64,000 bases of DNA, from NCBI GenBank assembly GCA_965214255.1, contig OZ243948.1, forward strand, positions 1,433,885 through 1,497,884, read 5' to 3'. A model generated the notes under the pieces. It ran no database searches. It was given only the letters and a program-made list of their open reading frames with translations, and was not told the origin of the DNA. The translations under genes were made by a program, and so were the position numbers. The stretch's first letter is position 1. Every line of letters begins with the position of its first letter. Below, piece after piece: positions 1-8,083 of the stretch. Origin of the DNA: Alphaproteobacteria bacterium. Its GTDB lineage: Bacteria > Pseudomonadota > Alphaproteobacteria > SMXP01.

Positions 1-608
1 AACGCGAACAGTTTTTCCCGAGGGTCGCGGTCGCGCTTGTACTGCTCGACGGCGTCGTCGGCGGTCTGCTTGGTGAGGCTGTTCTTCAGTTCGAAGGTGA
101 GGACGGGAAGGCCGTTGATGAACAGCGCGATGTCCAGCTCGCGCGAAGTCTCGTTCGCGCTGTAGCGCAGTTGCCGGGTGACGGTGAAGCGGTTCTGCTG
201 AAAACGCTCTTGCGCCGTCTCGTTGCCCGGGGACGGGGTGCCGTAGAACAGGTCGATCCGGTGGGCGCCGTGTTTGACGCCATCTCGGAGTACGTCAACG
301 GTCCCGCGCTTGGAGACTTCGCCGCGCAACCGGTCCAGGAACTTGCGGCGGGTGGGGCCGTCTTCCGAAAGGCTCAGAGACTCGGCGACACGAGGTTGCG
401 TCTCCCGGAGGAAGGCGGAGAGTTGGTGCAGGTCGACGCAGTGCTCCCGGTCGTAGTGGCGGTGACTGCCGGGTCTCCACCCGACGCCGCCAGGGGCCGC
501 GGACGTATCGAAGTCCGCCGCAGTGGCCGTCGGCTCGCACGGGTCGCCGGCCAGCGCCGTGCAGATCAGGCGTTCGAGGCCGCGTTCGGTGGTGTCTGTG
601 GTCGTCAT
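1..608 (-). CDS. hsdR: Type I restriction enzyme R subunit (HsdR), N-terminal part; gene runs off the window edge
   Basis: Minus-strand frame is open to position 1 with ATG at 608..606. Hand translation gives MTTTDTTERGLERLICTALAGDP... then ...RELDIALFINGLPVLTFELKNSLTKQTADDAVEQYKRDRDPREKLF, which is the conserved HsdR N-terminal region (D-x-x-L-F-x-N-G-x-P-x-x-x-x-E-x-K). It lies 5 bp downstream of orf256 in the same operon as hsdS and hsdM. Confidence 0.8.
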   Translation of the reverse strand, partial: MTTTDTTERGLERLICTALAGDPCEPTATAADFDTSAAPGGVGWRPGSHRHYDREHCVDLHQLSAFLRETQPRVAESLSLSEDGPTRRKFLDRLRGEVSKRGTVDVLRDGVKHGAHRIDLFYGTPSPGNETAQERFQQNRFTVTRQLRYSANETSRELDIALFINGLPVLTFELKNSLTKQTADDAVEQYKRDRDPREKLFA

Positions 609-613
609 GTCGC

Positions 614-1384
614 CTAGTTCAAGACGGCGACGAATTCGTCCGGTCGCGACCAGCACGAAACGGTGGATAAAGGCTCGATCATCTTGAAATCTTCATCGGA
701 CCAGACGTCGGACGTGTCGTCGAACAACGAAACGAACTCGTGGGCCTTCGGTCCTGCGGCGAGGTGATTCAGATCGTGCCAGACTGCCACCGCGTGCTCG
801 GAGACCCTGCGGGCCGCCGCACGGTTTCCGGTAGTCAAGACCAGAACAAGAGAACTTCGCCGCTCGGCGCGAACGTGAAAATCGATCGTCCAGCGATGCC
901 CCGAACGCCCGACCAGCTTCTCACCGGGTTCGAACTCAAACTCCCTCTCGGTAAGGAAGTCGGCGACGTCACCGGTAATAGACTGAACCGCCTGCGTTCG
1001 GAACGTGAACCACAGGTCGGATACGCGCAGGGCCGCCTGCGCGACCCGGGTGACGACCTCCGCAAGGTCGTCGCCGGGCCGACACTTCGCCTGAAGCATG
1101 CCCCGGCGGAACTCGATTCCATGCGTCACGCATGTATCTTCGATAAGCCGCGTCTGCTTCGGTGAGCGGCGCAACGACATGGACTGCATCCGAAGCCAGC
1201 CCGTGGTTTCGGCAAGGTCGCTCACCGTCACCCCGTTGTCATGGACTTGGCAGAAGAGATCGATGTTGTCGCCGTCCGGGTAGAGATAGGGCGTCCGAAT
1301 CCGTTGATGGTCTCCCTGCTCCGAGCAGGTGAACAAGGCGCCCAAGCGTTCCTGAAGATCACGGCAGATTTGGCTGGAGTCCAT
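614..1384 (-). CDS. Hypothetical protein (256 aa) encoded between hsdS and hsdR; no motif recognised
   Basis: ORF with ATG at 1384..1382 and stop 5 bp before the hsdR start. It is co-oriented and tightly packed inside the hsd operon. No signal peptide and no Walker, HEPN or Fic motifs were seen. Confidence 0.55.
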   Translation of the reverse strand: MDSSQICRDLQERLGALFTCSEQGDHQRIRTPYLYPDGDNIDLFCQVHDNGVTVSDLAETTGWLRMQSMSLRRSPKQTRLIEDTCVTHGIEFRRGMLQAKCRPGDDLAEVVTRVAQAALRVSDLWFTFRTQAVQSITGDVADFLTEREFEFEPGEKLVGRSGHRWTIDFHVRAERRSSLVLVLTTGNRAAARRVSEHAVAVWHDLNHLAAGPKAHEFVSLFDDTSDVWSDEDFKMIEPLSTVSCWSRPDEFVAVLN

Positions 1385-1423
1385 CAGAACATCTCACTTG
1401 GTTATCTTCTCGGCCAATGGAGT

Positions 1424-2875
1424 TCACACCGCCGCCGTTTCACGAGAGGCGTCGATATTGTCGGCTTCCGTCGGAGTCTCGTCAAGTCCGGGGTCGTCGG
1501 TCTCGTCTTCGGCGGCGAGGGGGTCGACCTGCGGCAGGGCCGCCGCCGCTTCGCGCACGTCTAGCTTGCCGGTGACGACATCGGCGACGAGGCGGGCGCG
1601 GTATTCGTCGAGCAGTTCGACTTCGCGGTCGGCGCGGGCGATGGCAGCGTCGATGTCGGCGGCAGCCTTGTCGAGATATGCGACGATGGCGGTTTGTTCG
1701 GGGAGGGGTGGTAAAATCACAGAGACTTTTTTCAACTCAGGCCAGTAAAGATTACGCTGTATTGTTCCTACCCCCTTGGAAAAAATCAGATATTGCGAAA
1801 CCATCAATTTTGTGCGTAGCAAGTAATTTGCATATACCGGATTCCAGCAATCGTTGAGACTTAAGACAATGTATGCTGGGCTTACTATTCCTTTGTATTG
1901 GGATACGCCTACCGATCCACGCCAAGCCTGTTGGTTGTTAAGAACAAAATCTCCCGGATCGACAGCTTGATAGTTAATCAAATCAACGCTTGTGGCATTT
2001 GCGCGCTTTTCTTCGACATCAGAAAACCTAACAACAGATTTATCCAGGTAGACGGAAAGAAGCTCTCGTTCCGGACAGTTACGCACGGACTTTAGATTGG
2101 AAACTGCACAGATCGGTAACACCTCCCAATGCGCCGGTACTTCCCCCAGCCATTCGACGCCGGAGTCCTTCATGGGCGCGTCGGGGTCGAGGCCGCGGGT
2201 GACGGCGCGGTGGACGAGGGCCTGCTTTTGCTCTTTGAGCAGAGCCACCAGCTTGCGCTTCGCCTTCGTGAGCCACCGCACCCGCCGGTCTATGTAGTCC
2301 AGATACCGCACGATGGCAGTTTGTTCATCCGGCGCCGTTGGAACCGCGACCGATATTTCTCGCATCCGAGCCTTCGACAAGTCCCACTGTCCAATACGAA
2401 CCCCATCTGAAGCCTTGTTGAAGCTAGGAACATACGCCTTTGATCTTATGGCCGTGTGAAAGAAGTCGCCATCGACTCCATGAAGGGCAAACACGAAGTA
2501 CGCGGGACTCACCAGCCCATTAAATTTCGACACACCATACGAGCCCTGCCACGCCTTCATCTTGTTCATGGCAAATTGACCTTGTTGAACGACCTTGTAA
2601 TTGCTTAGGTCGTCGGGAACGTAATTGTGGTTTTCGTCCCTATTGGAGAGGTCTCTAAGAATCACACCCTGTTCCCGCACCACTGATAGCAGAGGCAAAT
2701 CAGGCTGATTTCTAGTGACAACAGATCGGAGAAGGTGCCTTAGTTTCTTGATTTCCCAATGCGCCGGTACTTCGCCCAGCCACGCGACGCCGGAGTCCTT
2801 CATTTCGGGATAGGGTTCGAGTGTCTTGGCAACGGCTGCGGCCGTCGCTTCCACAGGTCGATCGGTCCCGGTCAT
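1424..2875 (-). CDS. hsdS: Type I R-M specificity subunit HsdS with two target-recognition domains
   Basis: The duplicated conserved segments KDSGVAWLGEVPAHWE and KDSGVEWLGEVPAHWE and the PEQTAIV motifs fit the two-TRD HsdS architecture. Preferred start is the ATG at 2875, which forms an ATGA overlap with the orf126 stop; the ORF track extends to 2902. Confidence 0.9.
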   Translation of the reverse strand: MTGTDRPVEATAAAVAKTLEPYPEMKDSGVAWLGEVPAHWEIKKLRHLLRSVVTRNQPDLPLLSVVREQGVILRDLSNRDENHNYVPDDLSNYKVVQQGQFAMNKMKAWQGSYGVSKFNGLVSPAYFVFALHGVDGDFFHTAIRSKAYVPSFNKASDGVRIGQWDLSKARMREISVAVPTAPDEQTAIVRYLDYIDRRVRWLTKAKRKLVALLKEQKQALVHRAVTRGLDPDAPMKDSGVEWLGEVPAHWEVLPICAVSNLKSVRNCPERELLSVYLDKSVVRFSDVEEKRANATSVDLINYQAVDPGDFVLNNQQAWRGSVGVSQYKGIVSPAYIVLSLNDCWNPVYANYLLRTKLMVSQYLIFSKGVGTIQRNLYWPELKKVSVILPPLPEQTAIVAYLDKAAADIDAAIARADREVELLDEYRARLVADVVTGKLDVREAAAALPQVDPLAAEDETDDPGLDETPTEADNIDASRETAAV

Positions 2876-3252
2876 GGAGCGGCATCCGCCTTGTACCGCC
2901 AACCGCGCTCCGTAGCGGCTACGGTGAGCCGTTTCGCCTTCTTTTCGACTTGCGTGTTGGAGCAGGCGGTGAAATCGATCAGCGCATGAGCGGGATGAGG
3001 CTCAGGATCGGGCTCAACCGGCAAGTCCTGCGCGGCACAGTCGCCACGGGAGACGGCGAGGACGCCGACCGAGGCGAACCCGAGATCTCCCGTGTAATAC
3101 GCCCAGGCGTCTTCAGCCGTAATCAGATCGCCGTCATAAACCGACAGACGCTTGCCGTCCTTGGGGAAAGGTTTGAACGCCTGGCTGGTCACGCGGCCTT
3201 TCTGTACCCAGGACGGGCTAACCTGACGATACAGCAAGGCGTCGTCGTTCAT
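2872..3252 (-). CDS. Hypothetical protein (126 aa), translationally coupled to orf375 upstream and hsdS downstream
   Basis: ATGA overlaps occur at both ends (3249-3252 and 2872-2875). Sequence: MNDDALLYRQVSPSWVQKGRVTSQAFKPFPKDGKRLSVYDGD...HALIDF. No recognisable family. Confidence 0.5.
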   Translation of the reverse strand: MNDDALLYRQVSPSWVQKGRVTSQAFKPFPKDGKRLSVYDGDLITAEDAWAYYTGDLGFASVGVLAVSRGDCAAQDLPVEPDPEPHPAHALIDFTACSNTQVEKKAKRLTVAATERGWRYKADAAP

Positions 3253-4376
3253 GACGCCTTGCCCAGGGTTTTCTCAAGTTTCTCAACGAGCCATGCCCAG
3301 GAATCGTCATCCTCGAGACCGAGCTCGCGGGTCTCTTCGTCGTCGGTCTCCAGGTCGAGTCCGTGCCATGTGCCGCGCTTATCGGCCAAGTGAATATCCA
3401 GCGACAAGTTCCACCGGTCGTTCGACCACTCGGCGCGAATGTCGCCTTCGGGAGTGGGATAGAGGTGCGGCAACACGGTTTCATCGGGATAATGAAGATC
3501 GCAGGCTCTTTCCAGCCAATCGACCCCGTCCGCCGGAGGAGCTTTGCCTTCCCCTTCCAGCCAGCCGTCCTTCAGCAGGCGTATCTCGTCGAGCCGCGCG
3601 CCGATGTCCAGAGGATCGAGGGCGTTGATGTGCTCGATGGAATCGAATCGGACCAATTTTCCGCCGCGATTCACGACGCCTACTCCTTGAATCAGAACCT
3701 TTTGCCCGGCCTGATAGCCGTTGAACACTTCCAATATGGTGTCTCGGTGTTGCGGAGCAATGGGCGCCGCCACCTTCTTGCCGTCAGGCAACTGCAACTC
3801 GAACCGCATATTGTCCTGATCCGCCTCCGGGACCAGGCCGCGAATGGCGGTCTCCTCGGCGATCTCCCGCGCCGAGGCGGATGCGTAGACCAGTCGTCGC
3901 CTGATTTCGCGGTCGAGTCTTGCGGGAGCAGGCCCGCTCCGCGTTCCGAATTCCATGGCTTCCCCTTCCCGAAGGCTTCGCCCCATCCGGTCGAAGTAGC
4001 TGAGCCATTTCTCGGGCAGGTAATCCGTAATTCCCTCTCCTTTTTCAGCGGCGGCAATGGCCGAAACGATCAAATTACGGGCCTTCTCGAAGTACTTCTG
4101 ATTCACCGGCGGAAACAGCGTCGGAGAGGCCGTAACCAGCGAGATCACGGGAACCGCGCTGCCGTCCTCGATGCCCGTCAGCTTCAATTCGATGCCGTTG
4201 GTAAATCCGCGCGGCGATCTTTTTCGGTCAGGATGGTCTTTGAGAAACTCGGTTTTCGCCACCTCGACGATCATCTCCTCAAGGACGGCCAGGTCCTTCA
4301 AAAACTCCAAGGGGATCGCCTTCCCTTCGAAGCGACTTCCGGTCAGCCTGGGTCGCATGAACTCATGTGCGCTCAT
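3249..4376 (-). CDS. Hypothetical protein (375 aa) within the hsd operon
   Basis: Long ORF with good codon periodicity that overlaps the fic stop by 14 bp and orf126 by ATGA. No catalytic motif recognised; the C-terminus is acidic (…LETDDEETRELGLEDDDSWAWLVEKLEK). Confidence 0.55.
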   Translation of the reverse strand: MSAHEFMRPRLTGSRFEGKAIPLEFLKDLAVLEEMIVEVAKTEFLKDHPDRKRSPRGFTNGIELKLTGIEDGSAVPVISLVTASPTLFPPVNQKYFEKARNLIVSAIAAAEKGEGITDYLPEKWLSYFDRMGRSLREGEAMEFGTRSGPAPARLDREIRRRLVYASASAREIAEETAIRGLVPEADQDNMRFELQLPDGKKVAAPIAPQHRDTILEVFNGYQAGQKVLIQGVGVVNRGGKLVRFDSIEHINALDPLDIGARLDEIRLLKDGWLEGEGKAPPADGVDWLERACDLHYPDETVLPHLYPTPEGDIRAEWSNDRWNLSLDIHLADKRGTWHGLDLETDDEETRELGLEDDDSWAWLVEKLEKTLGKAS

Positions 4377-5607
4377 CGTTCACCTCGACGGTTTCCCCGC
4401 CCGGACTCTCGCCCGCCAATCCCTCGCTCTCACGTTCCGGCGCGGCATCCAGTTCGGTTCCTTCATTGAGGATGGCCAAGTACCGGCCATAAGCGAACAG
4501 GCGCCCGTAGTGCCTTCCCGTAACTTCACGGACAATCCCGTAGTCGACAAGCCGGTCCATCGCCGATGAAACGGCGGGAAAGGAGAGCACCTTGCGCTTG
4601 CAAATCTCGGAAATGGAGAGGATCGGTCGTTCCGTCAGGGCCTGATGCACGAGCAAGGCCGAACCGGTGCGGCGGCCCCGCCTTTCTATGGCTTCCCTGT
4701 CTTTCATAAACATCTCGGACAGGCGGCGAGAGGTGGCGACCGCGTCTTCGGCGCCCACCCGCACGCTTTCGAGAAAGAAAGCCAGCCACGCTTCCCAGTC
4801 ACCGGTGCGGCGCACATGGTCCAACAAATCATAATACGTGCTTTGGCGGCGCTTGAAGTAAAGGCTCAAATACAGCAGCGGTTCCCGCAATACGCCGGAC
4901 CGACAAAGCAGAAGAACGATCAACAGCCGCCCGATGCGCCCGTTGCCGTCGAGGAAGGGATGGACGGTCTCGAACTGTACATGGGCGAGCCCCGCGCGGA
5001 TCAATACCGGCAGCCCGTCGTCCTCCGCGTTCAGAAAGCGCTCCAGGTCGGACATGCAGTCCTGCACGGCGGTATACGGCGGGGGCACGAATACCGCGTT
5101 GCCGGGCCGGGTGCCGCCAATCCAGTTCTGCGAACGGCGGAATTCGCCGGGCGCCTTGTTGCTTCCCCGCCCTCTCCGCAACAACACGCCGTGAATCTCG
5201 CGGATCAGACGATTGGACATCGGGAAGCCTTCCCGCAGGCGGCTCAGGCCGTGCTCCAGGGCGGCCACATGGTTCGAGACTTCGACGACATCGTCCAGCG
5301 GCACGCCGGACCTCTCCTGCGACTCATAAAGCAGGAGATCGGAAAAGGACGATTGCGTTCCCTCTATCTGCGAGGACAGGACGGCTTCCTTGCGTACATA
5401 GGCGTAAAGAAAGAGCGTCGAGTCGGGTAAAAACGCCGAGATGTTATCGAGCCGGCCGAGGGCGAGGGCCGCCGATTCGAAGGACTGTTGCAGAGCGCCG
5501 TCCAGGACGGGCGGGGGATCGGGCGGCAGCGGCGCAGGCAGAAAGGCGCGGACCCGTTCGCCCCCCGCGCTCGTGATTTCGTATCCGCCTATTTCTCCGC
5601 GCTCCAT
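4363..5607 (-). CDS. fic: Fic-family protein (adenylyltransferase/AMPylator fold) with an N-terminal inhibitory helix motif
   Basis: Canonical Fic motif HPFLDGNGRIGRLL (HxFx[DE]GNGRxxR). An upstream [ST]xxxE[GN] inhibitory motif (SSQIEG) is consistent with a class II arrangement. C-terminal region is wHTH-like. ATG at 5607..5605. Confidence 0.85.
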   Translation of the reverse strand: MERGEIGGYEITSAGGERVRAFLPAPLPPDPPPVLDGALQQSFESAALALGRLDNISAFLPDSTLFLYAYVRKEAVLSSQIEGTQSSFSDLLLYESQERSGVPLDDVVEVSNHVAALEHGLSRLREGFPMSNRLIREIHGVLLRRGRGSNKAPGEFRRSQNWIGGTRPGNAVFVPPPYTAVQDCMSDLERFLNAEDDGLPVLIRAGLAHVQFETVHPFLDGNGRIGRLLIVLLLCRSGVLREPLLYLSLYFKRRQSTYYDLLDHVRRTGDWEAWLAFFLESVRVGAEDAVATSRRLSEMFMKDREAIERRGRRTGSALLVHQALTERPILSISEICKRKVLSFPAVSSAMDRLVDYGIVREVTGRHYGRLFAYGRYLAILNEGTELDAAPERESEGLAGESPGGETVEVNDERT

Positions 5608-5686
5608 ATCGGATGAGTACCGAGTGATTTAAAGGAAATTGAATTTACCACTGTGAAATTAAAATTTCACGCAAAAAATTTAATTT
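5563..5686. repeat. Direct repeat copy A (~124 bp): AT-rich segment plus the first ~15 codons of fic
   Basis: About 92% identical to 5947..6069, including the stretch gagtaccgagtgatttaaaggaaattgaatttaccactgtgaaattaaaatttcacgcaaaaaatttaatt. Confidence 0.8.
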
Positions 5687-5743
5687 GCTGTAACCGGCAG
5701 TCCTTCGGGTTCCCGCTCCAAAGCCGGAATGCGGCTCCATATG

Positions 5744-5903
5744 TAACGCAGCCTTTCATACGGCAAGAATATGGTTCTATATGTTCGGCAGCCGTTCATA
5801 TAGCGGGCATTTGGGCCCATATGTAACGCAGCCGTTCATATAGCGGGAATGTGGACCCATATGTAACGCAGCCTTGAATATGGCGTTCTGTTGAGGCGGC
5901 CTT
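5744..5903. repeat. 4 x 40-bp tandem repeat, each unit containing CATATG/CATATA palindromic elements
   Basis: The units ggctccatatgtaacgcagcctttcatacggcaagaatat, ggttctatatgttcggcagccgttcatatagcgggcattt, gggcccatatgtaacgcagccgttcatatagcgggaatgt and ggacccatatgtaacgcagccttgaatatggcgttctgtt are directly adjacent. GC is about 45%. Confidence 0.8.
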
Positions 5904-5946
5904 GAACATTCATGCGGGACACTCCCCGACGATCTCGCCCGGCAGT

Positions 5947-6069
5947 CCCCGCGCTCGTGGTTTCGTATCCGCCTGTTTCTCCGCGCCGCATATCGGATGA
6001 GTACCGAGTGATTTAAAGGAAATTGAATTTACCACTGTGAAATTAAATTTTCACGCAAAAAACTTAATT
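5947..6069. repeat. Direct repeat copy B with a degenerate fic start (MRRGETGGYETTSAG) fused to an hsdM-3'-end-like tail
   Basis: Reverse-complement reads atg cgg cgc gga gaa aca ggc gga tac gaa acc acg agc gcg ggg, then act gcc ggg cga gat cgt cgg. This tail resembles the hsdM terminus gct gct ggg cga gat cgt cgg caa gta g. Copy B lies 40 bp downstream of the true hsdM stop. Confidence 0.7.
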
Positions 6070-6109
6070 CTCTACAAGTAAAACCTTACATCAAGACAGG
6101 TTCAGGTTC

Positions 6110-8083
6110 CTACTTGCCGACGATCTCGCCCAGCAGCCCCCCGCTCTCCCGTCCCAGCGCGAGGATGTCGCCTCGAATCTCCTCAAGGGAGCGCATCGGC
6201 TCCGGCTTGTAGAAGTGGCGCGTGAAGCTGATCTCGTAGCCGATCTTGACAGCTTCCGGGCGATACCAGGCGTCGGGCGCGTAGGGCAAGACCTCGCGCT
6301 TCAGGAACGCCTCTATGCCGCCCTTCTCGGTGAGCGGGACCTGCTCCGTGTCGCGCAGGTCCGGGTCCGGCTCGTACTCGACCACGGCGGGTTCGCCCTC
6401 GACGGTCGCCTCGAACAAGCCATGCAGAGGGTCCGCCCCCCCCCGCCTGTGGATCTTGCGGATGACGGGCGGCGCGTCCTCGGAGCGCGCGCCGGTCTCT
6501 TTGAGCGTCTTGATCTCCGCCGCCTTGCAGGCGCGGTTCGGGTCGGCGCCCTCGATGCGGAGCGGGCGCTCCACGACCACTTTCCAATACCCGAAAGCCT
6601 CGTTGTCGAAGATCCTGCTCCGCTCGGTTTCCTCGAAATCGAGGAACGCCTCGCAGATGCGCCGGATGTCGTCCTCGCCCAACTCGCAGTTCTTCTTGCC
6701 CAGATTCTTACGCAGGGGCCGGTACCACTCGGTCGCGTCGATGAGTTGCACTTTGCCCCGGCGGTGCTCCGGCTTGCGGTTGGTCAGCACCCAGACGTAG
6801 GTGGCGATGCCGGTGTTGTAGAACAGGTTCAGCGGCAGCGCGACGATCGCTTCCAGCCAGTCGTTCTCGATGATCCAGCGGCGGATGTTGCTCTCGCCCT
6901 GGCCGGCGTCGCCGGTGAACAGCGAACTGCCGTTGTGGACCTCGGCGATGCGGCTGCCGAGGGGCGTGTCCCGCTTCATCTTGGAGAGCAGGTTGACGAG
7001 GAACAGCATCTGCCCGTCGCTCGACCGCGTCACCAGGGAATATTCCGGGTCGTCGCCGTGTTGGATCATAAAGCGCGGATCGTGCATGTCCTTCTTGCCG
7101 CCCATGCGCTCCAGGTCCGTCTTCCAGCTTTTGCCGTAGGGCGGATTGGAGAGCATGAAGTCGAACGCGCGCGGGTGGGGGTAGGCATCGTTGGCCAGGG
7201 TGGAGTGTTGCGGGCCGCCCTCGATTTTATCCGCGTCATCGCCCTCGCCCTTGAGCATCAGGTCGGCCTTGCAGATCGCCGCGGTCTCCGCGTTGATCTC
7301 CTGGCCGTAGAGGTGCGTCGAGACCTGTTTCCCGCGTTCCGCGGCCAGTTCCTGCAGCGTCTGTTCCGCCAGGGTCAGCATGCCGCCGGTCCCGCACGCG
7401 CCGTCATAGAGAAGGTACGTGCCGGATTCGATCCGGTCGGAGATCGGCTGGAACACCAGCTTCGCCATCAGCCGCACCGCGTCGCGGGGCGTCCAGTGCT
7501 CACCGGCCTCCTCGTTGTTCTCCTCGTTGAAGCGGCGCACCAGTTCTTCGAAGATCGTACCGATGGCGTGGTTGTCGAGGCCCGGGAGCTTGATATCGCC
7601 TTTGGCGTCCTTGACGGGTTCCGGGCTCAGGTTCACCTTGGGGGAGGTGAATTTCTCGATCAAGACCCCGAGCGCGTCGGCGCGGCTCAGGCGGGGGATC
7701 TGGTTGCGGAACTCGAAGTTGTCGAGTATCTCCTGCACGTTCGGCGAGAATCCGTCGAGATAGGCCAAGAAGTCCGCTTCAAGTTGGTGCTGGTTGCCTC
7801 GCGCCCGCAGATCGTTGAGCGTGAATTGGGAGGTGTTGTAGAACGCCTGCCCCGACGCCTGGCGCAAGGCGGCGCTCTGGTCGACCAGACCGGCCCGGTC
7901 GAGACTGGCCTTCATGTCGAGGACCGCCCGTTTGGTGTCTTCGAGGACCGCGTCGAGACGACGCAGGACGGTCATCGGGAGGATCACGTCGCGGTACTTG
8001 CCCCGCGTGTAGAGGTCCCGGAGCACGTCATCGGCGATTCCCCAAATGTAGTTCGCAATCCACGTTACATCGCCGTTGGTCAT
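6110..8083 (-). CDS. hsdM: Type I R-M N6-adenine DNA methyltransferase subunit HsdM (long form, 657 aa)
   Basis: NPPYG catalytic motif (LSNPPYGKSW) and a SAM-binding region (LYDGACGTGGML). Neighbours hsdS and hsdR lie on the same strand. Confidence 0.9.
   Translation of the reverse strand: MTNGDVTWIANYIWGIADDVLRDLYTRGKYRDVILPMTVLRRLDAVLEDTKRAVLDMKASLDRAGLVDQSAALRQASGQAFYNTSQFTLNDLRARGNQHQLEADFLAYLDGFSPNVQEILDNFEFRNQIPRLSRADALGVLIEKFTSPKVNLSPEPVKDAKGDIKLPGLDNHAIGTIFEELVRRFNEENNEEAGEHWTPRDAVRLMAKLVFQPISDRIESGTYLLYDGACGTGGMLTLAEQTLQELAAERGKQVSTHLYGQEINAETAAICKADLMLKGEGDDADKIEGGPQHSTLANDAYPHPRAFDFMLSNPPYGKSWKTDLERMGGKKDMHDPRFMIQHGDDPEYSLVTRSSDGQMLFLVNLLSKMKRDTPLGSRIAEVHNGSSLFTGDAGQGESNIRRWIIENDWLEAIVALPLNLFYNTGIATYVWVLTNRKPEHRRGKVQLIDATEWYRPLRKNLGKKNCELGEDDIRRICEAFLDFEETERSRIFDNEAFGYWKVVVERPLRIEGADPNRACKAAEIKTLKETGARSEDAPPVIRKIHRRGGADPLHGLFEATVEGEPAVVEYEPDPDLRDTEQVPLTEKGGIEAFLKREVLPYAPDAWYRPEAVKIGYEISFTRHFYKPEPMRSLEEIRGDILALGRESGGLLGEIVGK

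What the first reader, a model, noticed from the sequence alone, without database searches (positions are those of the whole stretch)
614..1384. Unknown 256-aa protein wedged between hsdS and hsdR
The gene lies 39 bp after the hsdS stop and 5 bp before the hsdR start. This is the position usually occupied by nothing, or by anticodon-nuclease or Abi-type insertions. No motif was recognised, and the protein is cytoplasmic and moderately acidic.
Basis: seen in the sequence. Interest (0 to 1): 0.55.

Follow-up and report, generated by a model that had tools for sequence, protein, structure and literature searches.

The report
Solitary half of a defence-candidate gene pair
The gene between hsdS and hsdR is real, but it belongs to a catalogued, untested family (Pfam DUF1828, PADLOC candidate PDC-M24B) that normally travels with a small partner gene missing here, so it is an ordinary cargo gene with one unusual twist.

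Summary
The ORF is confirmed at 614..1384 on the minus strand. It encodes 256 aa, lies 39 nt after the hsdS stop and 5 nt before the hsdR start, and is under purifying selection (dN/dS 0.09-0.25).

It is not motif-less. It matches Pfam DUF1828 and PADLOC PDC-M24B (E 5e-100). PDC-M24 is an untested "guilt-by-embedding" defence candidate (Payne et al. 2024).

The AlphaFold model (pLDDT 86) has two domains:

The most constant neighbour of homologues is not hsdR. It is a 150-aa DUF6978 gene (PDC-M24A) directly upstream, with overlapping stop and start (TGATG). An M24A match is present in 89 of 100 loci that could be judged.

About two thirds of well-flanked loci sit in type I R-M operons, in the order hsdS-A-B-hsdR. 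The rest sit among housekeeping genes, transposons, an integrase island and a Streptococcus satellite phage.

The window has no A gene at all, so B is solitary here. This state recurs independently in other loci.

My best guess, which is inferred and not shown: B is the binding and neutralising or sensing partner of an A effector. Here it would be a retained orphan, co-expressed with hsdR.

Verdict: new member of a known candidate family; modest interest.

The parts
614..1384 (-). Solitary PDC-M24B gene (DUF1828 plus a DUF1829-like domain), 256 aa including the stop codon
   Evidence: ORF list. PADLOC PDC-M24B E 5.2e-100. Pfam DUF1828 over aa 31-121. dN/dS 0.09-0.25. It carries all family-invariant residues.
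983..1384 (-). N-terminal domain (aa 1-~134), T3SS-chaperone/YbjN/DUF2170-like fold. It carries the most conserved motifs, TPxxYPDGD (D37 invariant) and TDLGET (D56 invariant).
617..982 (-). C-terminal domain (aa ~135-256), PD-(D/E)xK restriction-endonuclease-like fold with a degenerate active site. D168 and the D222-D223 'SLFDD' motif are conserved, but there is no conserved Lys. Equivalent to Pfam DUF1829.
1385..1423 (-). 39-nt hsdS-to-ORF spacer. In relatives this position holds the 456-nt PDC-M24A (DUF6978) gene. No remnant of it is present here.
   Evidence: Junction comparison. tblastn of M24A against the window finds nothing below E 0.47. Profile HMM search of the six-frame translation gives best E 0.27.
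609..613 (-). 5-nt spacer between the ORF stop (TAG) and the hsdR ATG. Only a weak AGG lies 4-5 nt before the ATG, so translational coupling to hsdR is likely.
   Evidence: Sequence. In L006, L009 and L014 the homologous stop overlaps the hsdR start.
1..608 (-). hsdR 5' part (first 202 codons; the rest lies outside the window)
   Evidence: Pfam HSDR_N. PADLOC REase_I. 60-72% identical to HsdR N-termini of related loci.
1424..2902 (-). hsdS (492 aa as listed, TTG start)
   Evidence: Pfam Methylase_S. PADLOC Specificity_I E 1.9e-120.
6110..8083 (-). hsdM, first gene of the operon
   Evidence: HsdM_N plus N6_Mtase. PADLOC MTase_I E 2.8e-234. About 80% identical to HsdM of the related loci.
1457..1485 (-). 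Weak sigma-70-like site (TTGACG-17-GACAAT) inside the hsdS 3' end, about 70 nt upstream of the ORF. A possible promoter for an ORF-hsdR unit, but not above chance.
   Evidence: 2 sites found against 2.1 expected from shuffles.

Best explanation
SHOWN. The ORF encodes the B protein of a mobile two-gene cassette, DUF6978 (A, about 150 aa) followed by DUF1828/DUF1829 (B, about 259 aa). This cassette is PADLOC's untested defence candidate PDC-M24. The cassette is one of many cargo modules that lodge in the hsdS-hsdR slot of a horizontally spreading type I R-M lineage. In this window the A gene is cleanly absent, so B is solitary. It is intact, under purifying selection, and packed between hsdS and hsdR, so it is almost certainly co-transcribed with them and probably translationally coupled to hsdR. 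B has an N-terminal T3SS-chaperone/YbjN-like domain and a C-terminal restriction-endonuclease-like domain that lacks the canonical (D/E)xK lysine.

INFERRED. PDC-M24 works like a toxin-antitoxin or abortive-infection pair.
- A carries an invariant DHHNP-x-C...G-x-H-x-H-x-W motif and has no recognisable fold. It would be the effector.
- B would be its binder, neutraliser or sensor. The chaperone-like domain would hold A (or a phage protein). The catalytically degenerate nuclease-fold domain would bind DNA or mediate oligomerisation.
- A solitary B, as here, would then be a harmless orphan 'antidote/regulator'. It would be kept because it still neutralises incoming A-type effectors, because hsdR translation has become coupled to it, or both. 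It would not be expected to kill phage on its own.
For: Family identity: PADLOC M24B E 5e-100 and Pfam DUF1828.

The A partner:
- The 151-aa upstream ORF of relatives matches PDC-M24A (E 1.7e-64) and Pfam DUF6978.
- Its stop overlaps the B start (TGGTGATGG) in most relatives.
- An M24A match lies directly upstream of B in 89 of 100 loci that could be judged.
- All 16 places reached by searching with A have B directly downstream.
- The pair is conserved down to 24% identity in Streptococcus satellite phage Javan357.
- One protein, P0202, is an A-B fusion.

A is absent from the window.

No conserved Lys in B strand 3; the conserved residues are acidic.

B persists without A:
- A is absent in 8 loci where B is full length. 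Inspection of the loci flagged as truncated shows A broken by stops, frameshifts or deletions in about 12 more.
- L091 is an in-frame A-B deletion fusion.
- dN/dS between the two orphans L007 and L008 is 0.25, and 0.14 for the window against each of them.
- The window protein keeps every invariant residue and deviates from the consensus at 10 of 153 well-conserved columns, against a median of 5.
- In the one locus where B is interrupted (L016), the A copy has R73G at an otherwise invariant position.

Precedent: a DUF1829 domain occurs in DS-6B, the proposed antitoxin-like, DNA-binding partner of the validated HipAD defence system (PMC13092281).
Against: - No experiment exists for PDC-M24. It is only a candidate.
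- Which partner is toxic is not shown.
- The 'A decays, B stays' pattern comes from loci found by searching with B, so it is biased towards intact B. The A-anchored control is small: four A proteins plus one viral locus.
- L016 shows an A ORF without a functional B, so A may not be toxic.
- Gene order with the toxin first is the less common TA arrangement.
- B keeps several invariant acidic residues (D37, D56, D123, D168, D222, D223) that could form an unconventional catalytic site. 'Inactive' is therefore an inference from the missing Lys, not a demonstration.
- I could not inspect model coordinates or run a complex prediction.
Confidence: 0.42

Rival explanations
1. B is itself the effector. 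It would be an unconventional PD-(D/E)xK-fold nuclease whose chaperone-like N-domain senses a phage protein. A would be only an accessory or regulator. The solitary B in this window would then still be a working single-gene abortive-infection or defence nuclease that backs up the type I R-M system.
For: - Restriction-endonuclease-like fold.
- Conserved acidic residues E139, D168, D204, D222 and D223.
- B stays intact and under purifying selection without A in several independent lineages.
- Embedded in a defence operon.
- The family also sits at the accessory-gene position of a phage satellite.
Against: - There is no conserved Lys or Arg where (D/E)xK should be. Strand 3 is hydrophobic (SLVxxLS).
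- The strongest conservation lies in the non-nuclease N-domain.
- The window protein does not reach Pfam DUF1829.
- A is co-inherited in about 80-90% of loci, which argues that B normally needs it.
Confidence: 0.2
2. B is an accessory of the restriction enzyme. For example, it could be a chaperone-like assembly or gating factor for HsdR, or a transcriptional regulator of hsdR. That would explain why it sits immediately before hsdR and can lose A when embedded.
For: - 26 of 39 well-flanked loci are type I R-M loci, and hsdR starts within 120 nt in 23 of the 40 loci with a downstream hsdR.
- The stop and start overlap or are 5 nt apart.
- M24B and HsdM diverge to a similar degree across phyla (74-80% against about 80%), which suggests long co-residence.
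- 6 of the 8 loci with A absent and B full length are R-M-embedded.
Against: - A third of loci have no hsd genes, and there B always comes with A.
- The excess of orphans in R-M loci is not significant (Fisher p 0.26).
- In many R-M loci other cargo genes separate B from hsdR by 0.2-6.7 kb.
- Many unrelated cargo genes use the same slot: DarG, pAgo, PIN TA pairs, AAA_21 plus DUF4276.
Confidence: 0.12
3. The gene is a functionless leftover of a decayed cassette that has simply not yet accumulated disabling mutations.
For: - A is gone.
- Many relatives show the cassette in various states of decay.
- The window protein lacks the 3 C-terminal residues seen in relatives and shows 10 deviations at well-conserved columns, against a median of 5.
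Against: - Intact ORF with all invariant residues present.
- dN/dS 0.09-0.14 against relatives, and 0.25 between two orphans that share the orphan architecture.
- The deviations are mostly conservative.
- Tight packing with hsdR argues for continued expression.
Confidence: 0.15

Closest known systems
PADLOC phage-defence candidate PDC-M24 (Payne, Hughes, Fineran, Jackson 2024, bioRxiv 10.1101/2024.01.29.577857; cassette CAS_00098 FAM_00129>>FAM_00065)
   Same: The ORF matches the PDC-M24B model over its full length (E 5e-100). Like the founding examples, it is embedded in a type I R-M operon.
   Different: The A gene (DUF6978) that defines the two-gene candidate is missing here. The candidate itself has never been tested, and no paper mentions it by name.
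Pfam DUF1828 / DUF1829 proteins (for example 'Lj965 prophage protein' of Streptococcus satellite phage Javan357)
   Same: Same two-domain architecture and the same upstream DUF6978 partner. The DUF1828 match is above the gathering score.
   Different: Only 24% identical. The window protein's C-domain is too diverged to reach the DUF1829 model. The genomic setting differs: satellite accessory region against R-M operon.
Class I type III secretion chaperones and YbjN/DUF2170 proteins (Spa15, SicP, CesT-like proteins, AmyR, BacA/PA14_16140)
   Different: No sequence similarity (4-16% identity). No T3SS context. Fused to a nuclease-fold domain. The conserved PDGD and TDLGET motifs are specific to DUF1828.
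PD-(D/E)xK restriction-endonuclease-fold nucleases (PspGI, BstEII, AF1548, and the Can2 and Card1 nuclease domains)
   Different: The (D/E)xK element is absent and no Lys is conserved. The best-conserved motif (SLFDD after strand 4) is not a canonical nuclease motif.
Other cargo embedded between hsd genes: PrrC/RloC anticodon nucleases, TgvAB of Vibrio cholerae VPI-2 (bioRxiv 10.1101/2024.04.04.588119)
   Same: Same genomic logic: an independent module nested between hsdS and hsdR. TgvAB is also a two-gene unit that needs both genes.
   Different: No homology. There were no PrrC, RloC or GmrSD hits. TgvAB and PrrC have demonstrated activities; this family does not.
HipAD / DS-6 (DefensePredictor, PMC13092281)
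   Same: DS-6B carries a DUF1829 domain and is proposed to be the antitoxin-like, DNA-binding partner of a toxic kinase. In L093 a solitary M24B sits behind HipA-like and HIRAN genes.
   Different: DS-6B pairs DUF1829 with DUF3037, not DUF1828, and its partner is a kinase, not DUF6978. The link is by domain name only. I did not compare sequences.

Membership tests
PADLOC PDC-M24 (two-gene candidate system) | Protein matching the PDC-M24B profile | tested here: met
   PDLC04540 E 5.2e-100, residues 5-255 against profile positions 3-253 of 256.
PADLOC PDC-M24 (two-gene candidate system) | Adjacent upstream PDC-M24A (DUF6978) gene | tested here: not met
   Only 39 nt separate hsdS from the ORF. 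No M24A is found anywhere in the 64 kb by tblastn (best E 0.47) or by profile HMM (best E 0.27). No remnant is present at the junction.
PADLOC PDC-M24 (two-gene candidate system) | Anti-phage activity | not testable with these tools
   It is listed only as a candidate. No paper names PDC-M24.
Pfam DUF1828 | Score above the gathering cutoff | tested here: met
   45.6 bits against a cutoff of 22, residues 31-121 covering the whole 91-position model.
Pfam DUF1829 | Score above the gathering cutoff for the C-terminal domain | tested here: inconclusive
   The window protein gives no hit at E<=0.01. The homologous C-domain of the Javan357 protein does hit DUF1829 (31.6 bits against 22.2), and the SLFDD/LIDD motif aligns by eye.
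PD-(D/E)xK nuclease superfamily | alpha-beta-beta-beta-alpha-beta core fold | tested here: met
PD-(D/E)xK nuclease superfamily | Catalytic D...(D/E)xK residues conserved | tested here: not met
   D168 is present in 38 of 49 sequences. Strand 3 reads SLVxxLS, and no Lys reaches 60% conservation anywhere in the domain. This was judged from sequence and secondary structure, not from a superposition.
Type III secretion class I chaperone / YbjN-like | Chaperone fold | tested here: met
Type III secretion class I chaperone / YbjN-like | Encoded next to a secreted effector or T3SS genes, and binds that effector | tested here: not met
   Its neighbours are hsd genes and defence cargo. Binding cannot be tested with these tools.
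Type II toxin-antitoxin-like pair | Two small co-directional genes with coupled translation | tested here: inconclusive
   Met in relatives, with the TGATG stop/start overlap. Not met in the window, which has only one of the two genes.
Type II toxin-antitoxin-like pair | One partner toxic and neutralised by the other | not testable with these tools
   Only indirect evidence exists: A is lost or broken while B stays intact in about 20 loci. That sample was found by searching with B, so it is biased.
   The only PADLOC hits are PDC-M24B. Pfam gives DUF1828 only. NCBIfam gives nothing.

The most novel reading that the evidence does not exclude
DUF6978-DUF1828/1829 would be a new kind of two-component abortive-infection module. 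A type-III-chaperone-like domain would cage a small effector that has no known fold and carries a His/Asn/Cys motif. Solitary B copies wedged before hsdR would have been co-opted, either as standing 'immunity' against incoming A-type effectors or as a chaperone-like gate on HsdR. That would link a cargo module functionally to the restriction enzyme that hosts it.
Probability: 0.15. Interest if true: 0.6.

Novelty: new member of a known kind. Interest (0 to 1): 0.3.

Why it matters
If the pair really is a defence or toxin-antitoxin module, it adds a system whose two proteins have no characterised relatives. One has no fold match in the PDB. The other combines a secretion-chaperone fold with a degenerate nuclease fold.

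The repeated survival of the B gene without A would then be a natural experiment showing which partner is dispensable.

In practical terms, the finding shows that this window's type I R-M operon is a cargo carrier. It holds SoFic, PDC-M32AB and half of PDC-M24, which fits the 'guilt-by-embedding' picture. As it stands, the locus confirms an existing catalogue entry and does not reveal a new phenomenon.

Tried and rejected
- **Anticodon nuclease, Abi or another known defence protein.** Rejected: no hits in PADLOC, Pfam or NCBIfam other than PDC-M24B and DUF1828.
- **Sequence relatives with solved structures.** None for B or A.
- **Foldseek against AFDB50.** The library was not available.
- **Fusion proteins as functional clues**. 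Most look like gene-calling or deletion artefacts: GNAT, DUF429, DUF5615, an HsdR C-terminal fragment. Only the DUF6978-DUF1828 fusion P0202 is informative.
- **Recovering the rest of hsdR and the organism.** The taxon is therefore unknown, and the integrity of hsdR beyond codon 202 could not be checked.
- **Plasmid collection.** No homologue of A or B.
- **Viral contigs.** Only 1-2 weak loci.
- **Profile A2 as a locus query.** Too diverse to derive search patterns.
- **Enrichment of solitary B in R-M loci.** Not significant (Fisher p 0.26 and 0.63).
- **Promoter and terminator scan.** Nothing above chance.

Full report
**1. The observation**

- The ATG is at 1384-1382 and the TAG stop at 616-614. 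The product is 256 aa.
- The hsdS stop (1426-1424) is 39 nt upstream.
- The hsdR ATG (608-606) is 5 nt downstream.

The flanking genes are bona fide hsdS, hsdR (only its first 202 codons lie inside the window) and, further upstream, hsdM.

The protein is acidic (pI 5.4) and has no hydrophobic segment.

It is a real gene. GC3 is 0.75 against GC2 0.44. It has more than 1000 homologues. dN/dS against relatives is 0.09-0.14.

**2. What the protein is**

It is not motif-less.
- It matches Pfam DUF1828 above the gathering score.
- It matches two PHROGs of unknown function.
- It matches PADLOC's PDC-M24B model over its full length, E 5e-100.

PDC-M24 is one of 145 'phage defence candidates' that Payne et al. 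derived by 'guilt-by-embedding'. These are gene cassettes found nested inside BREX, DISARM or type I R-M systems. The candidates are untested (bioRxiv 10.1101/2024.01.29.577857). No paper in the library names PDC-M24. DUF1828, DUF1829 and DUF6978 are mentioned only in passing.

**3. Structure**

An AlphaFold2 model built on 44 homologues is confident (mean pLDDT 86) and has two domains joined by a long helix.

Foldseek against viral models gives phage DUF1828 proteins and restriction-endonuclease or DUF2726 proteins.

A diverse alignment (49 sequences, 25-53% identical to the window protein) gives this conservation:
- Invariant: D37 (in TPxxYPDGD) and D56 (in TDLGET), both in the chaperone-like domain.
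- Near-invariant: C20, T31, P32, P36, L64, D123, D223 and W245.
- In the nuclease-fold domain: D168 (38/49), D204 (43/49), D222 (42/49) and D223 (47/49).
- No lysine is conserved, and the strand that should carry (D/E)xK reads SLVxxLS.

The fold is therefore nuclease-like, but the canonical active site is not there. This is an inference from sequence and secondary structure. I could not superpose coordinates.

The homologue in Streptococcus satellite phage Javan357 hits Pfam DUF1829 with the equivalent region. So the architecture is DUF1828 plus DUF1829.

**4. What travels with it**

I collected loci from four sources:
- 18 loci from GTDB genomes (Vicinamibacterales, Gammaproteobacteria, Spirochaetia, Gemmatimonadota, Latescibacterota and Caldilineaceae, 62-86% identity);
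- 80 loci from metagenomes;
- 8 places for 52-65%-identical homologues;
- 16 places reached from the partner protein.

Two patterns emerge.

(a) *The constant neighbour is a DUF6978 gene, not hsdR.*
- A ~151-aa gene lies directly upstream. It matches PADLOC PDC-M24A (E 1.7e-64) and Pfam DUF6978.
- Its stop overlaps the B start (…TGGTGATGG…).
- An M24A match is present in 89 of 100 loci that could be judged.
- Every place reached by searching with A has B directly downstream.
- The pair recurs at 24% identity in the Streptococcus satellite, where the A ORF is unannotated.
- One protein, P0202, is an A-B fusion.

(b) *Association with type I R-M is strong but not obligatory.*
- 26 of 39 loci with at least 3 kb on both sides carry hsd genes.
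- The usual order is hsdM…hsdS-A-B-hsdR. hsdS ends 500-590 nt upstream of B, which is the length of A plus short spacers.
- hsdR starts within 120 nt in 23 of the 40 loci with a downstream hsdR.
- The other third sit among housekeeping genes, transposases, an integrase plus Mrr island, or a phage satellite.
- The same R-M lineage has HsdM about 80% identical across phyla. It carries many other cargo genes in the same slots: DarG, pAgo, an HTH-IrrE protein, PIN/RHH and DUF433/DUF5615 pairs, HicA, AAA_21 plus DUF4276, and an IS200-like transposase.

**5. What is special here**

The window has no A gene. Only 39 nt separate hsdS from the ORF. The junction shows no remnant. Neither tblastn nor a profile HMM over the six-frame translation finds A anywhere in the 64 kb.

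Solitary B is not unique to this window.
- A is absent with B full length in 8 other loci. These include L006 (a 12-nt remnant of A remains), L007 and L008, L025, L039, L069 and L093. In L091 an in-frame deletion fuses the first ~12 residues of A to B.
- Inspection of the loci flagged as truncated shows A broken by stops, frameshifts, 5' truncations or internal deletions, with B intact, in about 12 more.

Orphan B genes stay under purifying selection: dN/dS is 0.25 for L007 against L008, and 0.14 for the window against each of them. The window protein retains every invariant residue. It deviates at 10 of 153 well-conserved columns, against a median of 5, and mostly conservatively.

Caveat: these loci were found by searching with B, so they over-represent intact B. 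The A-anchored control is small.

In the single locus where B is interrupted (L016), the A copy carries R73G at a position invariant in 37 other A proteins. This is anecdotal.

**6. The partner protein**

Its invariant residues cluster in DHHNP-x-C…G-x-H-x-H-x-W. The motif recurs as H-x-NP…G-x-H-x-H-x-Y in the Streptococcus copy. I could not assign a chemistry to it.

**7. How it most likely works**

*Shown:* family membership, domain folds, the obligate-looking A-B pairing, the absence of A in this window, embedding in a cargo-rich R-M operon, and purifying selection.

*Inferred (confidence about 0.4):*
- PDC-M24 behaves like a toxin-antitoxin or abortive-infection pair.
- A is the effector.
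- B is the binder, neutraliser or sensor. A secretion-chaperone fold is a polypeptide-binding device. The nuclease-fold domain without a catalytic lysine would bind DNA or oligomerise.

DUF1829 has a precedent of this sort. In the validated HipAD/DS-6 system, the DUF1829-containing DS-6B is proposed to be the antitoxin-like, DNA-binding partner of a toxic kinase (PMC13092281).

On this reading the window's gene is an orphan 'antidote/regulator'. It is tolerated and still selected, perhaps because hsdR translation is coupled to it: the spacer is 5 nt with only a weak AGG.

*Rivals:*
- B is an unconventional active nuclease that can defend alone (0.2).
- B is an HsdR-directed accessory (0.12). 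The non-R-M third of loci and the non-significant enrichment of orphans in R-M loci (Fisher p 0.26) weigh against this.
- B is a decaying remnant (0.15). dN/dS weighs against this.

**8. Comparison with what is known, and novelty**

The closest catalogued entity is PADLOC PDC-M24. The B criterion is met and the A criterion is not, so the system as defined is incomplete here.

The protein is a member of Pfam DUF1828. It has the folds, but not the defining functional features, of T3SS chaperones and PD-(D/E)xK nucleases. It is unrelated to PrrC, RloC or TgvAB, which share only the embedding logic.

It is therefore a new member of a known but uncharacterised candidate family, present in an orphan state.

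New in this analysis, as far as the held literature shows: the fold assignments, the lack of a fold match for A, the recurrent loss of A with retention of B, and the unannotated A gene in a Streptococcus satellite.

**9. Verdict**

The gene is ordinary embedded cargo of an already listed candidate family, with an interesting missing-partner twist.

Interest is 0.3. The most novel reading not excluded is a chaperone-caged effector module with B co-opted at hsdR. I give it probability 0.15, and interest 0.6 if true.

Noticed in passing
window 2872-5607 (- strand): The same hsd operon carries three more cargo genes between hsdM and hsdS: SoFic (4363-5607; Fic_N plus Fic; PADLOC SoFic E 1e-112), PDC-M32A (3249-4376; E 3e-145) and PDC-M32B (2872-3252; E 2e-51). 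The M32A/B pair also occurs about 3 kb from a fragment of an M24B homologue in L017.
   Followed up: partly
window 5563-6141 (hsdM-SoFic spacer): The spacer has a repeat structure. A 123-nt direct repeat (5563-5685 and 5947-6069, 95% identical) comprises an AT-rich leader with the palindrome GTGAAA-n6-TTTCAC plus the first ~17 codons of fic. There is a 30-nt copy of the hsdM 3' end (5921-5950 against 6112-6141). Between them lie 3.8 copies of a 40-nt tandem repeat (5722-5873). It looks like a recombination or insertion scar, or a regulatory array.
   Followed up: partly
L123 2454-2918 (MK448450.1, about 2353-2817, minus strand): Streptococcus satellite phage Javan357 has an unannotated 154-aa ORF that is a clear DUF6978 / PDC-M24A protein (Pfam E 1e-29). 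It overlaps the start of the annotated 'Lj965 prophage protein' (DUF1828 plus DUF1829) and lies next to the integrase.
   Followed up: yes
L091 1830-2624: An in-frame deletion fuses the first ~12 residues of M24A (MPLTNAEFDAILAD) to M24B from about residue 14. This creates a solitary B with an A-derived N-terminus.
   Followed up: partly
L093 7861-10795: A solitary M24B homologue lies about 420 nt downstream of a HipA-like kinase gene and a HIRAN-domain gene, outside any R-M locus. DUF1829 also occurs in the HipAD (DS-6B) defence system.
   Followed up: no
L015 7986-9425; L007 11161-12525; L039 337-2162; L069 4752-5243; L006-L008 upstream of M24B: Other occupants of the cargo slots on either side of M24B (hsdS-M24B and M24B-hsdR) in the same R-M lineage: a short pAgo (E 4e-196), DarG (E 4e-130), AAA_21 plus DUF4276, an IS200-like Y1 transposase, and an HTH plus IrrE/M78 peptidase protein (RmrA-like).
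   Followed up: partly
L016 10001-11965: The M24B homologue is split by a ~1.2-kb insertion that carries a 332-aa ORF on the opposite strand. The adjacent M24A ORF is intact in length but has R73G at an otherwise invariant position.
   Followed up: partly
window 1424-1560 (hsdS 3' end): HsdS ends in a long acidic, low-complexity tail (…AAEDETDDPGLDETPTEADNIDASRETAAV). The HsdS fragment of L039 has a similar tail, so it is a feature of this lineage and not a scar left by loss of M24A.
   Followed up: partly
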